Assembly (NCBI GenBank): GCA_041671325.1
Contig: JBAZBR010000002.1
Span: forward strand, 73,978 to 137,977
Length of the DNA: 64,000 bases
Source: Patescibacteria group bacterium
GTDB taxonomy: Bacteria > Patescibacteriota > Patescibacteriia > PEXW01
Reading direction: 5' to 3'
Every line of letters starts with the position of its first letter. Within the stretch, counting starts at the first letter, position 1. The notes under the pieces were generated by a model. It saw only the letters and a list, made by a program, of their open reading frames with translations. It searched no databases and had not been told where the DNA came from. The translations under genes and the position numbers were made by a program. This document shows positions 3,128-29,739 of this stretch, one piece after another.

Positions 3128-4162
3128 ATGCATTTCTACAAGATGAAAATTAATTTAACTTATTTAAAGTTATCCTCATTTTACGTTTTGATTATCATGT
3201 TAATCAGCGCGTCTTTTAGTCTTGCGATTTTTAAAATATCATCAAATGAGCTAAATCGCGGTTTGGATCGGCAAGCTGGAGTATTTAGAGGTTTGCCACC
3301 AGGCAGCTTTTTAACAAACCCCTTCCAAGACATGGAAAATATTCGTATCCAACAATTGCACGAAAGCAACGATAAATTAAAGCTTAATTTATTATATTTT
3401 AACCTGTTAATTTTAGCCCTTTCTTCTGGTCTAAGTTATTTTTGGGCCAGACGAACCATGAGACCAATTGAAGAGGCTATGGAATCGCAAAACCGTTTTA
3501 CAGCTGATGCTTCACATGAATTGCGGACGCCTTTAACTGCCATGCGCACGGAAATTGAAGTCAATCTTCGTAATGGCGAACTCAGCTCTCACGAGGCTAA
3601 AAAGTTATTAGCTAGCAACTTAGAGGAAATCAGTAAGCTTGAGACCCTTTCCAGTGCACTTTTAAAACTTGCCAACCAAAATGGGCAAGTCAATTTTGAG
3701 TTTGGCAAGGTGTCTGTGGAAGAAGTTATTGCCGAAGCATATTCGAAGATTGAAAGTTTAGCCAAGAAAAAGTTAATTGAGTTTGAAAATAGCTTTCAGA
3801 ATTTATTTGTGAGGGGTGATAAAGCAGGATTAACTGAATTATTTATCATTTTATTAGATAACGCCATTAAATATAGTCAGGAAAAATCAAAAATTTTTAT
3901 TATAATAGAAGAGGAAAAAGACCAAGCAATAATCAAAATTAAAGACCAAGGTATTGGCATCAAGGCTTCTGATTTGCCATATATTTTTAACCGTTTTTAC
4001 CGAGCTGATACTTCGCGCTCAAAGAATAAAGTAGACGGTTATGGCCTAGGGCTTTCTATCGCTAAAAGAATTGCGGAAATGCATAAAGGAAAAATTTCAG
4101 TTGAGAGCCAGGTTGGCCAAGGTTCGACTTTTACCATAGAAATTCCTTTAGTACACAATTAA
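3128..4162 (+). CDS. Sensor histidine kinase (two TM segments, short extracytoplasmic loop, HisKA + HATPase_c)
   Basis: H-box FTADASHELRTPLTAM; G-boxes DQGIGI, GYGLGLSIAKRI; start chosen at ATG 3128 just after the RR stop (the track ORF starts at 3101 overlapping the RR). Confidence 0.85.
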   Translation: MHFYKMKINLTYLKLSSFYVLIIMLISASFSLAIFKISSNELNRGLDRQAGVFRGLPPGSFLTNPFQDMENIRIQQLHESNDKLKLNLLYFNLLILALSSGLSYFWARRTMRPIEEAMESQNRFTADASHELRTPLTAMRTEIEVNLRNGELSSHEAKKLLASNLEEISKLETLSSALLKLANQNGQVNFEFGKVSVEEVIAEAYSKIESLAKKKLIEFENSFQNLFVRGDKAGLTELFIILLDNAIKYSQEKSKIFIIIEEEKDQAIIKIKDQGIGIKASDLPYIFNRFYRADTSRSKNKVDGYGLGLSIAKRIAEMHKGKISVESQVGQGSTFTIEIPLVHN

Positions 4163-7704: not shown

Positions 7705-8445
7705 GTGGAAGACAAGAAAGAAATTGAAAGTCCGCCTGGACGGTGCTTACTCACACGGGATAAGGCAATAGAGCATTGGAAGGCTGGCAATATCGTAATT
7801 TACCCCTACAATCTGCTCAACCACCAGACTACTTCCTATGACGCACGGCTTGGGAAATGGTATTTCCGGGAACAGCGTTTTCGAGGTTCCCGTGCCGTTT
7901 TAAATCCATTCAGCAAAGCCGACGTCGAGAAGTATTGGGGCGAAGCCCAACAGGCTGTCAGAGCGGCTGAGTGGATGGAAGAAAACGGCAAACTTGAAAA
8001 AATCCATCCAGATGACTTAATTATCGTGATTGGTCCGGGTGAGACAATTCTTGCTCATACCTTTGAATTCATTGGCGGACGCAACTGCGTTTCCACGGAA
8101 ATGCGAGCTAGAAGCTCCATTGGCCGAGTTGGTACGACAGTATGTAAATGCGCCGGTTGGGGCGACTTGGGTTATGTAAACCGCTGGACCATGGAAATGA
8201 CCAATCACTTGACTGAACTTTCAATTGTTTTGCCGGTCGGCATGCGTATAGCCCAAATGATTTTTTATCAGGTCGATCCAATTGAAGGGCTGACATACGC
8301 AACCGAAGGGGGGAAATATCAATCGACGGATGATGTCAAGGAAATGATTAGGTCTTGGAAACCAGAGGATATGATCCCCAAGTTATACAAGGATCGAGAC
8401 ATTGATCACTTTAGAGAGTACATTGACGTTCCTTTGCCAGAATAA
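7705..8445 (+). CDS. dcd: dCTP deaminase (Dcd/dUTPase fold) with ~60-aa C-terminal extension
   Basis: Collinear with E. coli Dcd: LLTRDKAIEHW / SYDARLG / HPDDLIIVIGPGETILAHTFEFI / ARSSIGRVG / GWGDLGY. Confidence 0.7.
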   Translation: MEDKKEIESPPGRCLLTRDKAIEHWKAGNIVIYPYNLLNHQTTSYDARLGKWYFREQRFRGSRAVLNPFSKADVEKYWGEAQQAVRAAEWMEENGKLEKIHPDDLIIVIGPGETILAHTFEFIGGRNCVSTEMRARSSIGRVGTTVCKCAGWGDLGYVNRWTMEMTNHLTELSIVLPVGMRIAQMIFYQVDPIEGLTYATEGGKYQSTDDVKEMIRSWKPEDMIPKLYKDRDIDHFREYIDVPLPE

Positions 8446-9858: not shown

Positions 9859-9977
9859 GTTGACCCCGCACCACTTTCTAAAACAATCCAAATTTTTAAA
9901 TAAATAAAGAGATCAATTCTGGATAAGTATTCAATTAATAATAGGTAAATTTGTATGGAAAGTGGTGCGGGGTTGAC
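9859..9977. repeat. Element with perfect 20-bp terminal inverted repeats (GTTGACCCCGCACCACTTTC ... GAAAGTGGTGCGGGGTTGAC) around an AT-rich 79-nt core; MITE-like or structured RNA
   Basis: Exact reverse-complement arms at 9859-9878 and 9958-9977; a second copy with near-identical arms at 29115-29229. Confidence 0.7.
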
Positions 9978-10001
9978 AGGCGCGGGCTTCCGTGTTATTT
10001 T
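9973..10001 (+). promoter_or_regulatory. Candidate str-operon promoter TTGACA-N17-TATTTT embedded in the right arm of the IR element
   Basis: TTGACA at 9973 with a 17-nt spacer, ~90 nt upstream of rpsL. Confidence 0.35.
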
Positions 10002-13539: not shown

Positions 13540-13652
13540 GAACCTTCGGGTTTGACGAAAAATTAATGTTCTGTTATACTCGCATTTGCACTTCAGTCAA
13601 CTTTTTCAAACTAATTTCAATTATTTTTTCAATTAATTAACCTAATAAGACA

Positions 13653-14837
13653 ATGGCAGAAAACTTTGACCGTTCAAAACCGCACGTCAATGTCGGAACT
13701 ATTGGCCACGTTGACCACGGCAAGACCACTTTGACTGCGGCTATCTTAAAAACCCTGGCTGAGAGGGGTTTTATCGCTCAGCAAAAAGGCGTTGACCAGA
13801 TTGATAACGCTCCTGAAGAAAAAGCCCGGGGTATCACTATTGCCACTGCTCACGTGGAATATGAATCAGAAAAGCGCCACTATGCCCACGTTGACTGTCC
13901 GGGCCATGCCGATTATGTCAAAAACATGATTACTGGCGCAGCCCAGATGGACGGCGCAATCCTAGTAGTTTCCGCAGCTGATGGCCCTATGCCTCAGACC
14001 CGCGAACACATTTTATTGGCTCGCCAAGTTGGCGTGCCATACATTATCGTCTTTTTGAATAAAGTCGATATGGTCAATGATCCGGAATTGATTGATTTGG
14101 TGGAAGTTGAAATCAGGGATCTTTTGAAAAAATACGAATTTCCTGGCGATACCACCCCGATCATTCGTGGTTCAGCCTTAAAGGCTCTGGAAGGTGATAA
14201 AGCCAACCAGGATGCCGTCATGCAGTTGATCAAAACCTTGGATGAATATATTCCAGAGCCTAAGCGTGACTTAGACAAGCCTTTCTTAATGCCAGTTGAA
14301 GATATTTTTTCAATCGAAGGTCGCGGCACCGTGGCCACTGGCAGGATCGAAAGAGGCGTCGTTAAGATTAATGATGAAGTGGAAATTGTCGGCCTTCATG
14401 CAACCAAAAAAACCGTGGTTACCGGCATTGAAATGTTCAATAAGTCTTTAGCCCAAGGCCAGGCAGGCGATAATGCTGGTCTTTTGCTCAGAGGCACCAA
14501 AAAGGAAGAAGTTGAAAGAGGCCAGGTAATGGCCAAACCCGGCACAATCACGCCTCATACCGAATTTGAATCAGAATGCGTGATTTTGACCAAAGAAGAA
14601 GGCGGCCGGCATACCCCGTTCATGAAGGGTTATAAACCACAATTTTATATTCGGACTACTGATGTTACTGGCGAAGTAATCTTGCCTGAAGGTACGGAAA
14701 TGGTCATGCCAGGCGATACCGTAAAATTAAACGTAATCTTAGTAGCCCCAGTTGCTTTGGAAGAAAAACAGAGGTTTGCCATTCGGGAAGGCGGCCACAC
14801 TGTTGGCGCGGGAGTTGTAACCAAAATTACTAAATAA
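13653..14837 (+). CDS. tuf: Elongation factor Tu
   Basis: [21 protein letters not shown], 394 aa. Confidence 0.97.
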
Positions 14838-28609: not shown

Positions 28610-29035
28610 TTATGTGCCGTAGATTCTGTTGAAGTAATATCTGCGGGCATGCTCTTTGTCTTTTTTTTCGTATTCCTTGCGAAGATTGATTCCCCGTTGA
28701 ATTGCGCGTTCGAATTGGCAGCCCATAATGGGCTTCACTTGCTTTGTCGATCCAACGGTTTCACAGCTGTTAAAAGCGGCGATGATCAATGACCATTTTA
28801 GTAGCCACTCTTTTTCATTTTCCAATCCATGGAAGGCGGTTTGGAAGGCGATGGCTCTAAGAAGGCAACGCTTTGTTTTGCCTTTGCAATGGTTTAGGGT
28901 CATCATCTTTTTCACGATTTGGAGAGCCTGGTTGGCATCAAAATTGGCTGCAAGCAGTTCGGTTTCTAGCATGCTAAGAAGCGAATGAGCCTCTTTTGTT
29001 TTTACTTGCTGTTCCGAAGACTCTTTGGTATTCAT
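28610..29035 (-). CDS. Hypothetical protein (141 aa)
   Basis: ATG at 29035 preceded by GGAAAGGA; the track ORF extension to 29137 is encoded by the repeat element. Confidence 0.6.
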   Translation of the reverse strand: MNTKESSEQQVKTKEAHSLLSMLETELLAANFDANQALQIVKKMMTLNHCKGKTKRCLLRAIAFQTAFHGLENEKEWLLKWSLIIAAFNSCETVGSTKQVKPIMGCQFERAIQRGINLRKEYEKKDKEHARRYYFNRIYGT

Positions 29036-29114: not shown

Positions 29115-29229
29115 GTCAACCCAGCACCACTTTTCACTAAAACGCCCTAAACATAGCCCCTGAGTTATTTTTGGATAACAAGTTACAGTATAAAGAAAGG
29201 CTGTTTATGAAAAGTGGTGCTGGGTCAAC
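29115..29229. repeat. Second copy of the terminal-inverted-repeat element (GTCAACCCAGCACCACTTTTCA ... TGAAAAGTGGTGCTGGGTCAAC)
   Basis: 22-bp perfect inverted arms; arm and loop-edge similarity (CTAAAAC...TGT.T) to the element at 9859-9977. Confidence 0.7.
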
Positions 29230-29241
29230 CCCCTTAATTTT

Positions 29242-29739
29242 ATGGGCAAAAGCATGGTTACTTTCCTGGCAGTCGGCATTCTGTTGATTGCTTTTGCTTG
29301 GGCAATAGGTGGCAATGAAATTACCGATTACACGTCTTATTATTTCAAGTGCCTAATTGGCCAAACTGCCAAGGTTGAGATAAAAAATCAAGTTATTAAA
29401 GCTGAAGTTGTCAAATCGACTAAAGCTAAAGCCAAAGGCTTGAGCCATCGGAGAAATCTGCCAAAAGATAAAGGCATGCTTTTTGTCTTTGACCAGGCGG
29501 ATAAATATGAGTTTTGGATGAAAGACATGAAAATTCCCTTGGATATTATCTGGATCAACGATGGTAAGGTGGTGGATATTTCTAGAGGTGTTTTTCCGCC
29601 AGTTGCAGGTTCAGAGCCGGTAAGAGTCAAACCCACTAAATCAGTTAAAGAGATTTTGGAAGTTTATTCTGGCGTTGGGCAAAATTGGCAAATAGGCGAC
29701 CAGGTAAATATTACATTTGGGAGAATTTTAGGTTTATGA
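29242..29739 (+). CDS. DUF192 domain protein (COG1430)
   Basis: KGLSHRRNLPKDKGMLFVF...YEFWMKDMKIPLDIIWI. Confidence 0.7.
   Translation: MGKSMVTFLAVGILLIAFAWAIGGNEITDYTSYYFKCLIGQTAKVEIKNQVIKAEVVKSTKAKAKGLSHRRNLPKDKGMLFVFDQADKYEFWMKDMKIPLDIIWINDGKVVDISRGVFPPVAGSEPVRVKPTKSVKEILEVYSGVGQNWQIGDQVNITFGRILGL

What the first reader, a model, noticed from the sequence alone, without database searches (positions are those of the whole stretch)
29115..29229. Second copy of the inverted-repeat element between a hypothetical gene and the DUF192 gene
This copy has 22-bp perfect arms, GTCAACCCAGCACCACTTTTCA and TGAAAAGTGGTGCTGGGTCAAC. Both copies are intergenic and lie directly upstream of a plus-strand gene, which fits an insertion preference or a regulatory role.
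Basis: seen in the sequence. Interest (0 to 1): 0.55.

Follow-up and report, generated by a model that had tools for sequence, protein, structure and literature searches.

The report
Small hairpin transposon inside a promoter
The inverted repeat is one copy of a small, non-coding mobile DNA element that has jumped into the -35 box of a promoter and rebuilt that box by duplicating four bases; it belongs to an apparently undescribed family found in roughly 70 species, mostly ultra-small (CPR) bacteria.

Summary
The repeat is real, but it is not a 22-bp perfect palindrome. The arms pair perfectly over 18 bp (29119-29136 / 29208-29225). The outer bases form a direct repeat, TCAA, on both sides.

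Window 29120-29224 is a 105-bp MITE-like element. It has terminal inverted repeats YCC[A/C]GCACCACTTT and a 4-bp target-site duplication. Copy 1 (9864-9972) belongs to the same family and is flanked by TTGA.

Orthologous loci prove insertion:
- Relatives at 55-57% DUF192 protein identity carry a single TCAA and no element at the copy-2 site. A relative at 80% DUF192 identity carries the element.
- A relative with an 87%-identical flanking protease carries a single TTGA at the copy-1 site.
- That relative has its own copy in the tuf promoter, where the window is empty.

Both window copies sit in the -35 hexamer of a sigma-70-type promoter and regenerate it. Copy 2 lies in TTGACT-17-TACAAT of the minus-strand gene 28610-29035. 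Copy 1 lies in the rpsL promoter.

Most are Patescibacteria; some are respiring non-CPR MAGs. A second target class is the G-F-T codons of type IV prepilins.

The mobilising enzyme was not found. Rfam and the searchable literature have no match. I call it a new variant of a known kind, with interest about 0.6.

The parts
29116..29119 (.). Left target-site duplication of copy 2, TCAA (TTGA on the minus strand)
   Evidence: Read directly from the sequence. Empty orthologous sites L245 and L246 carry a single TCAA.
29120..29224 (.). Copy 2 of the element, 105 bp
   Evidence: The boundaries are those that give exact 4-bp flanking direct repeats in 58 of 149 family members. The element is absent from L245/L246 and present in L243/L244.
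29120..29136 (+). Left terminal inverted repeat, CCCAGCACCACTTTTCA
   Evidence: The family core CC[A/C]GCACCACTTT is paired at close to 100% in 150 pairs.
29137..29207 (.). AT-rich interior, not conserved between family members
   Evidence: Similarity to the copy-1 interior is marginal (z 1.98). It shows 9 substitutions in 71 nt against the ortholog L243.
29208..29224 (+). Right terminal inverted repeat, TGAAAAGTGGTGCTGGG
29225..29228 (.). Right target-site duplication of copy 2, TCAA
29091..29119 (-). Sigma-70-type promoter of the minus-strand gene: -35 TTGACT (29119-29114), 17-nt spacer, -10 TACAAT (29096-29091). The -35 overlaps the left duplication.
   Evidence: Best promoter-like site in the region, 10 of 12 matches. 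Both hexamers are conserved in orthologs with and without the element. Promoter activity was not measured.
28610..29035 (-). Hypothetical gene (141 aa from the ATG at 29035) served by that promoter
   Evidence: no Pfam hit. One assembly calls it as 141 aa. Another calls it as 175 aa, with a start that runs into the element, which is probably an over-extension.
29242..29739 (+). DUF192 gene on the other side of the element
   Evidence: PF02643, E 2.3e-24. The 80% ortholog starts at the second ATG, which corresponds to 29254.
9860..9863 (.). Left target-site duplication of copy 1, TTGA
   Evidence: The empty site in L239/L240 has a single TTGA.
9864..9972 (.). Copy 1 of the element, 109 bp
9973..10001 (+). 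rpsL promoter TTGACA-17-TATTTT. The first four bases are the right target-site duplication of copy 1.
   Evidence: 10 of 12 matches, with TG before the -10. The same promoter is present without the element in L239/L240.
13548..13557 (+). Unoccupied target in the window: GGGTTTGACG, the -35 of the tuf promoter. It is occupied by a family member in relative L239.

Best explanation
Window 29120-29224 is a non-autonomous, MITE-like transposable element. It is a 105-bp AT-rich segment bounded by 17-bp terminal inverted repeats (family consensus YCC[A/C]GCACCACTTT). It integrated into the tetranucleotide TTGA of the -35 hexamer of the promoter that drives the minus-strand gene 28610-29035, and duplicated those four bases.

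The element ends in ...GGG and the duplicated TTGA is followed by the original C-T. The promoter-proximal junction therefore reads GGG-TTGACT again, with the original 17-nt spacer and the TACAAT -10 behind it. The promoter is rebuilt and the insertion is tolerated. Copy 1 did the same to the rpsL promoter.

Shown here: the insertion, the terminal repeats, the duplication, the target preference, the multi-copy cross-lineage family, and the conservation of the rebuilt promoter sequence.

Inferred: mobilisation in trans by a transposase that makes 4-bp staggered cuts and reads the 14-16 bp ends; that the promoters are active; and that rebuilding them is why these copies survive.

Not identified: the enzyme.
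For: (1) Filled and empty sites.
- Copy 2: L245 (57% DUF192 identity) and L246 (55%) read ...TAATTTAG-TCAA-GACAC...ATG, with the -35 and -10 conserved and no element. L243/L244 (80%) carry the element at the same site.
- Copy 1: L239/L240 (87%-identical flanking protease) read ...GCAAAAGG-TTGA-CAATTC..GTGTTATTTTT. The window reads ...CTAAAAGAG-TTGA-[109 bp]-TTGA-CAGGCG..GTGTTATTTTT.
- Reciprocal case: L239 has a copy in the tuf -35, where the window is empty.

(2) Family.
- Arms come as convergent pairs: 150 pairs against 28 single arms.

(3) Target-site duplication.
- 58 of 149 elements have exact flanking direct repeats of 4 bp or more, against 7.2 expected from randomly paired flanks.
- The repeats are TTTA/TAAA (23), TTGA/TCAA (21) and a few others.
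- The central dinucleotide is direct in 51 cases and inverted in 8.

(4) Target.
- 23 of 27 outward-facing TTGAC ends have TAnnnT at a 16-18 nt spacing, against 1-3 at control spacings.
- The left-flank consensus is GGG-TTGA.

(5) Second target class.
- In 15 cases the flanks are the two halves of a prepilin N-terminus, M..(K/R)GFT | FTLIELL.
- The neighbouring genes are type IV pilus genes.

(6) Other evidence.
- Nested copies occur in L072 and L004.
- Several contigs end close to a copy, for example L025, L028, L049 and L073.
- No interior polarity relative to the duplication in the TTGA class: A 499 against T 479. This fits symmetric ends.
Against: - No transposase or recombinase with these ends was found in the window or in about 900 kb of loci.
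- Interiors are not conserved between copies of one CPR genome, which is unusual for a MITE. Meanwhile the 13-nt core is nearly invariant across phyla.
- About a third of the copies show no recognisable duplication. Some copies, such as those in L029, fit a 2-bp repeat better.
- The shortest forms, with 6-14 nt between the arms, could hardly be synapsed as duplex DNA by a classical DDE enzyme.
- Copy 2 is kept at the orthologous site with perfect arms and only 13% interior divergence, while third codon positions next door differ by 42%. That suggests constraint beyond selfish persistence.
Confidence: 0.82

Rival explanations
1. The element is primarily a structured RNA, either a cis-regulatory 5'-UTR or 3'-UTR hairpin or a small RNA. 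Its long stem is selected at the RNA level, for example as an RNase III site or a stabilising hairpin in the DUF192 leader.
For: - Folding is very stable: -42 to -51 kcal/mol for copy 2, z -5.9 to -7.7.
- Stem positions outside the core covary: -1 is C-G in 107 cases and T-A in 23; core position 3 is A-T in 112 and C-G in 27.
- Between the orthologous copies, 2 substitutions change U.G to U-A and one pair changes G-C to A-U.
- The interior diverges by 13%, against 42% at third codon positions.
- Three copies lie in or next to an RNase P RNA gene.
Against: - No Rfam family reaches its threshold. The weak RAGATH-9 hit was not reproduced.
- The wobble-favoured strand of copy 2 lies upstream of the predicted minus-strand promoter, so it would not be in that transcript.
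- Per-element G.U against A.C purity is barely above random: 22 observed, 15.3 expected, of 62.
- Copies occur in both orientations, in coding leaders and in promoters.
- The empty/filled sites and the duplications need a DNA-level origin in any case.
Confidence: 0.12
2. The element moves by site-specific recombination of a folded hairpin, in the manner of integron attC sites or Xer-dependent elements, and not by cut-and-paste transposition. Its joined ends would form two 13-bp inverted repeats around a 6-bp asymmetric spacer, GT-xy-AC. That site would recombine with look-alike targets of the form GGG-TTKA-CCC.
For: - Each junction reads (GG)GT-xy-AC(CC), with xy identical and direct at both ends. 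This is what an overlap region would leave.
- The target resembles the abutted ends.
- The loop varies from 6 to about 100 nt, like the variable terminal structure of attC.
- The very short forms are easier to handle as hairpins.
- Copies cluster 0.5-2 kb apart around single genes.
Against: - No integrase is adjacent. Xer-like genes occur in only 3 of 115 loci.
- The ends match the attC core sites RYYYAAC / GTTRRRY at only 5-6 of 7 positions, and in most copies both ends carry the same hexamer in direct orientation, which the inverse-core/core arrangement does not allow.
- The target outer half-sites are not conserved beyond 2-3 bases.
- A 4-bp staggered-cut duplication explains the same data more simply.
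Confidence: 0.12
3. The arms are operator sites for a DNA-binding regulator that controls the adjacent promoters, with the two half-sites about 90 bp apart.
For: The right or left arm abuts the -35 hexamer in both window copies and in 23 further promoter-class copies. The arms are perfectly conserved between orthologs.
Against: - The same arms lie inside prepilin coding leaders, next to an RNase P RNA gene, nested in one another, and in hosts of different phyla.
- Orthologous promoters work with the same hexamers but without the arms.
- No regulator co-occurs with the element.
Confidence: 0.04

Closest known systems
Bacterial MITEs in general, such as Correia elements of Neisseria and RUP of Streptococcus pneumoniae (compared from my own knowledge, not tested against their sequences)
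   Same: Both are about 100 bp, non-coding and AT-rich inside, with terminal inverted repeats and short target-site duplications. Both are multi-copy, mostly intergenic and close to gene starts, with presence/absence differences between relatives. Like Correia ends, these ends sit next to or contribute to -35 hexamers.
   Different: - The duplication is 4 bp, TTKA, and not TA.
- The ends have a different sequence.
- The 13-nt core is conserved across many CPR classes and in non-CPR hosts, while the interiors are unrelated even within one genome.
- The promoter is not created here. It already existed and is rebuilt.
- No parent insertion sequence is known.
Rickettsia palindromic elements (RPE; from my own knowledge)
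   Same: Both are palindromic repeats of about 100-150 bp that are tolerated inside genes. Here 6 of 15 prepilin insertions stay in frame and open from the original start codon. Copies also lie in or next to an RNA gene, RNase P RNA in L029.
   Different: Sequence and hosts are unrelated. Here there are clear 4-bp duplications and a defined target. Most copies are intergenic and sit in promoters.
Integron attC sites (from my own knowledge)
   Same: Both are imperfect palindromes of 40-130 bp with conserved ends and a highly variable central part. Both often flank single genes, and both can fold as single strands.
   Different: - The core sites do not fit RYYYAAC / GTTRRRY.
- The conserved part here is a 13-bp stem segment.
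- There is no integrase and no cassette array.
- The window copies sit between housekeeping genes.
REP/BIME elements and IS200/IS605-derived palindromic elements (from my own knowledge)
   Same: Both are hairpin-forming extragenic repeats. IS200/IS605 targets such as TTAC and TTGAT resemble TTTA(C) and TTGA(C).
   Different: Those elements leave no duplication, have subterminal hairpins and not terminal inverted repeats, and are strand-specific. Here there are 4-bp direct repeats and no polarity of the interior.

Membership tests
MITE (miniature inverted-repeat transposable element) | Small and non-coding | tested here: met
   The two copies are 105 and 109 bp. The family has 6 to about 100 nt between the arms, with a mode of 73-75. 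No ORF is specific to the element.
MITE (miniature inverted-repeat transposable element) | Terminal inverted repeats | tested here: met
   The ends are 14-17 bp. The core is paired at close to 100% in 150 pairs.
MITE (miniature inverted-repeat transposable element) | Target-site duplication | tested here: met
   Both window copies have 4-bp direct repeats. So do 58 of 149 family members, against 7.2 expected.
MITE (miniature inverted-repeat transposable element) | Insertion polymorphism (filled and empty orthologous sites) | tested here: met
   Three sites were compared.
MITE (miniature inverted-repeat transposable element) | A related autonomous element with the same ends that encodes the transposase | tested here: inconclusive
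   None was found in the window or in the 115 loci. Whole genomes could not be searched.
Correia / CREE elements | TA duplication and the Correia 26-bp terminal repeat | tested here: not met
   The duplication is TTKA. The Correia end sequence is quoted from memory and was not compared directly.
Integron attC | R'' RYYYAAC and R' GTTRRRY core sites in inverse orientation | tested here: not met
   Read by eye from the printed ends. GTCAAC and GTTGAC fit 5-6 of 7 positions. In most copies both ends carry the same hexamer in direct orientation.
Integron attC | Association with intI or a cassette array | tested here: not met
   The only integrase-family genes are Xer-like, in 3 of 115 loci. The window copies lie between housekeeping genes.
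Any Rfam RNA family | Score at or above the family's gathering threshold | tested here: not met
   Searches found only tRNAs. The best sub-threshold hits are generic hairpin models and RAGATH-9 at 24 bits against a threshold of 75. The RAGATH-9 hit was not reproduced.
IS200/IS605-derived palindromic elements / REP | No target duplication, and strand-specific insertion 3' of a tetranucleotide | tested here: not met
   Direct 4-bp repeats lie on both sides. The interior has no polarity relative to the repeat. The two window copies lie in opposite orientations.
Sigma-70-type promoter (the target of copy 2) | -35 and -10 hexamers at a 16-18 nt spacing, conserved in orthologs | tested here: met
   TTGACT-17-TACAAT, conserved in L243-L246. 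Activity was not measured.

The most novel reading that the evidence does not exclude
The family may be more than a passive MITE. It could be a hairpin element handled by an as yet unknown, widely shared enzyme that recognises a folded 13-bp stem. It would home to sequences that mimic its own joined ends (GGG-TTKA-CCC) and so rebuild what it interrupts: -35 boxes, or prepilin leaders, where its right end reads K-S-G-A-G just before the cleavage site. Some copies, including copy 2, would have been kept by the host as part of promoter or leader architecture. This would explain why arms and interior evolve far more slowly than synonymous sites.
Probability: 0.2. Interest if true: 0.8.

Novelty: new variant of a known kind. 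Interest (0 to 1): 0.6.

Why it matters
CPR/Patescibacteria genomes are small and, as far as I know, are usually described as poor in mobile DNA. This work points to a repeat family present in roughly 70 species-level assemblies, with a defined target, that sits in promoters of core genes (rpsL, tuf) and in type IV pilin genes.

Practical consequences:
- The element marks real -35 boxes. In 23 of 27 cases a TAnnnT follows at 16-18 nt. This gives a sequence-only handle on promoters in organisms without transcript maps.
- It misleads gene callers. The neighbouring gene is called as 175 aa against 141 aa. There is a spurious 183-aa rpsL ORF. Prepilin leaders appear lengthened.
- Contigs often end close to a copy, so it may break assemblies.

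Its presence in respiring non-CPR MAGs points to transfer between CPR bacteria and possible hosts or neighbours. Finding the enzyme that moves it could give a small, target-specific insertion system.

Tried and rejected
- Rfam at gathering and at E-value thresholds on the window and on 26 loci found nothing. The RAGATH-9 hit of 24 bits was not reproduced.
- Full-text search for the arm 10-mers and for MITEs or palindromic elements in CPR returned only primers or unrelated papers.
- A viral-contig scan with the 14-mer end gave only single chance hits and no paired arms.
- Same-species empty-site patterns for copy 2 and copy 1 in JGI metagenomes gave 0 hits each. Contigs from other samples that carry identical proteins are identical at the site.
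- A search for a long element bounded by the ends turned up only chance near-matches.
- Clustering the neighbouring ORFs for an enzyme found only pilus genes enriched.
- An inward-facing promoter from the other TTGACC end is not supported: the -10 candidates I read by eye are poor.
- A built-in start codon before the right arm is not enriched: ATG in 9 of 300 arms.
- Strand-specific G.U selection across the family is weak: 22 observed against 15.3 expected.
- Interiors are not generally tRNA-derived, despite the 73-75 nt mode. Only one element (L025) encloses a tRNA.
- Chance is rejected.

Full report
**1. The observation**

The perfect inverted repeat is 18 nt, at 29119-29136 / 29208-29225, with 71 nt between the arms. 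The outer bases read G-TCAA-C on both sides, so they form a direct repeat.

The arm 18-mer, with up to 3 mismatches, occurs four times in the window against 0.12 expected. The four hits form two convergent pairs, at 9863-9880/9956-9973 and at the finding. Both copies share the 13-nt core CCNGCACCACTTT exactly. A relaxed paired-arm scan finds nothing else above chance.

Copy 1 is flanked by TTGA on both sides. This is the reverse complement of the TCAA that flanks copy 2.

**2. A large family**

I scanned one genome per species with GCACCACTTT-N45-75-AAAGTGGTGCNGG.

- By my count of the record titles, these come from roughly 70 assemblies.
- Most are Patescibacteria/CPR of many classes: Kerfeld-, Komeili-, Doudna-, Kaiser-, Taylor-, Nomura- and Saccharibacteria.
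- Some MAGs are labelled Thermodesulfobacteriota, Deltaproteobacteria, Gammaproteobacteria, Chthoniobacterales or Endomicrobiia.
- The Thermodesulfobacteriota/Deltaproteobacteria loci encode complex I, cytochrome oxidase and isocitrate dehydrogenase. These hosts are therefore not CPR.
- Two hits, Hymenobacter and Brucella, look like chance matches in coding DNA.

In these loci plus the window, arms occur as 150 convergent pairs against 28 single arms. The spacing between cores runs from 6 to about 100 nt, with a mode of 73-75.

Interior sequences are unrelated between lineages, and even between copies of one CPR genome. In the Thermodesulfobacteriota MAGs they are conserved and occur in both orientations.

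Rfam has no family for the element. The papers I could search do not describe it.

**3. Anatomy**

Counting pairs over the 150 elements gave the following.

| Position | Result |
|---|---|
| 13-nt core | paired at close to 100% |
| -1 | covaries, C-G in 107 and T-A in 23 |
| -2 | mostly A-T |
| -3 and -4 | not complementary |
| -5 | mostly T-A |

At -3/-4 the dinucleotide is instead the same in direct orientation at both ends. It is AA/AA in 17 cases, CA/CA in 14, TT/TT in 13 and TG/TG in 7, against 8 inverted combinations.

If the element is taken as YCC[A/C]GC...GC[T/G]GGR, 58 of 149 copies have exact direct repeats of 4 bp or more immediately outside. Randomly paired flanks give 7.2. The repeats are TTTA/TAAA (23), TTGA/TCAA (21), CGCG (3), TTCA (3), TTAA (2) and a few singletons.

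This is the signature of a target-site duplication with target TTKA. The left flank is G-rich (GGG-TTKA) and the right flank often starts with C or CCC. The target therefore resembles the element's own abutted ends.

**4. Proof of insertion at both window copies**

Copy 2. Orthologous loci keep the same gene order: glycosyltransferase, minus-strand hypothetical gene, DUF192, L21.

- The relative with 80% DUF192 identity (L243/L244) has the element at the same site.
- The relatives at 57% (L245) and 55% (L246/L247) have ...TAATTTAG-TCAA-GACACTG...ATG or ...TATAGCCG-TCAA-CACCC...ATG. There is one TCAA and no element. The ATTGTA/TACAAT and GTCAA/TTGAC hexamers are in place.

Copy 1. The protease-rpsL spacer of L239/L240 (87% protease identity) reads ...GCAAAAGG-TTGA-CAATTCATCAGCCTCGTGTTATTTTTGC. 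The window reads ...CTAAAAGAG-TTGA-[109 bp]-TTGA-CAGGCGCGGGCTTCCGTGTTATTTTTTC. L241 (66%) also lacks the element.

Reciprocal case. L239 carries a slightly degenerate copy (14415-14521) in GGG-TTTGAC-G, the -35 of the tuf promoter. The window (13548-13557) is empty there.

The family has therefore been mobile within this genus-level group.

**5. What was hit**

For copy 2 the best promoter-like site in the region is on the minus strand. It is TTGACT (29119-29114), a 17-nt spacer and TACAAT, reading into the hypothetical gene whose ATG is at 29035. For copy 1 it is TTGACA-17-TATTTT, with TG before the -10, in front of rpsL. In both, the first four bases of the -35 are the duplication.

Across the family, 23 of 27 outward-facing TTGAC ends have TAnnnT at a 16-18 nt spacing. 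Control spacings give 1-3. The empty sites show that these promoters existed before the insertion. The insertion regenerates the hexamer at the promoter-proximal end.

**6. The second target class**

The second target is TTTA inside GG(N)-TTT-AC(C), the G-F-T codons at the prepilin cleavage site. In 15 elements the left flank encodes M-(K/R-rich)-G-F-T and the right flank continues F-T-L-I-E-L-L. Removing the element and one repeat restores a normal leader.

Six of the 15 are in frame and open from the original start codon. In those, the left arm reads G-F-T-Q-H-H-F and the right arm reads K-S-G-A-G just before the cleavage site.

This explains why the neighbours of the element are enriched for pilins, PilB, PilC, PilM, prepilin peptidase and response regulators.

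**7. Mechanism and what is missing**

Terminal inverted repeats, a 4-bp duplication, both orientations and no interior polarity relative to the duplication (A 499 against T 479 in the TTGA class) all fit a cut-and-paste transposase acting in trans. Nested copies exist.

I found no gene bounded by these ends and no enriched transposase or recombinase. Whole genomes could not be searched.

Several features keep a hairpin-recombination mechanism alive as a rival:
- the deep conservation of the 13-nt core;
- the unrelated interiors;
- the very short forms;
- the resemblance between the target and the joined ends.

From memory, the ends (CC...) and the 4-bp repeat resemble what is listed for the IS1380 family. 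I could not test this.

**8. Is copy 2 more than junk?**

Between the window and L243, the arms differ at 0 of 44 positions. The interior differs at 9 of 71. The promoter/5'-UTR flank differs by about one substitution plus two short indels in roughly 80 nt. Third codon positions of DUF192 differ by 42%.

Three of the nine interior changes keep pairs on the minus strand, and one further pair changes on both sides from G-C to A-U. With two sequences this is only suggestive.

Family-wide, strand-specific wobble purity is weak: 22 observed against 15.3 expected. The element may lie in the DUF192 5' leader if that gene is transcribed from the weak TTGCGG-17-TATTGT on the plus strand. I read this site by eye; it is below the scan's threshold.

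A host-level role is possible but unproven.

**9. Verdict**

It misread the ends and missed which promoter was involved.

The feature is a MITE-like element of an apparently undescribed, widely distributed family. The family targets -35 boxes and prepilin G-F-T codons and rebuilds them. I rate it a new variant of a known kind, with interest about 0.6.

Noticed in passing
L029:7411-7830: Three family members lie within 420 bp, in or next to an RNase P RNA gene. The motif GGAGGAAAGTCCGAACAC lies between the first two. There is a partial RF00011 match at 7813-7865 (23.9 bits, E 2.4e-4). Two of the copies are flanked by a 2-bp AG repeat and not by 4 bp.
   Followed up: partly
L025:3491-3599: Arms with one mismatch each enclose a complete tRNA-Arg(tct) gene (3506-3580, minus strand). 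The outside flanks look like the 5' and 3' parts of another tRNA-like sequence. This is the only case among the 150 elements, and I have no explanation for it.
   Followed up: partly
window:62491-62651: A different inverted repeat: arms of 22 nt at 91% complementarity (TCTGTTTTCAAGTCAGGCCAGG / CCTGACCTGGCTTGAAAACAGA) with 117 nt between them. It is unrelated in sequence to this family.
   Followed up: no
window:28610-29137 and window:9955-10506: Mechanical ORFs run into the elements. One is a 175-aa form of the hypothetical gene, which one assembly's gene call uses (L236), against 141 aa in L238. The other is a 183-aa rpsL ORF that starts at an ATG in the right arm of copy 1 (M-E-S-G-A-G-L-T...). 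Both are probably over-extensions.
   Followed up: partly
L242:10631-10881: The protease-rpsL spacer of this relative lacks the element. It holds a different insert rich in TACGAA/TTCGTA repeats just upstream of the same -35.
   Followed up: no
L072:2741-2933 and L004:6231-6433: Nested copies: one element lies inside the interior of another.
   Followed up: partly
L056:7295-7434 and L093:792-883: Very short forms, with 8-14 nt between the arms, occur in tandem with partial duplications of the arms inside prepilin 5' regions.
   Followed up: no
window:29242-29256: The closest DUF192 ortholog (80%) starts at the position that corresponds to the second ATG (29254, MVTFLAV...). The annotated start at 29242 may therefore be four codons too early.
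   Followed up: no
L007:1585-2106 and three other loci: A 173-aa protein with a PaaX central Cas2-like domain (PF20803, E 1.6e-17) recurs near elements in 4 loci. Its significance is unknown.
   Followed up: no
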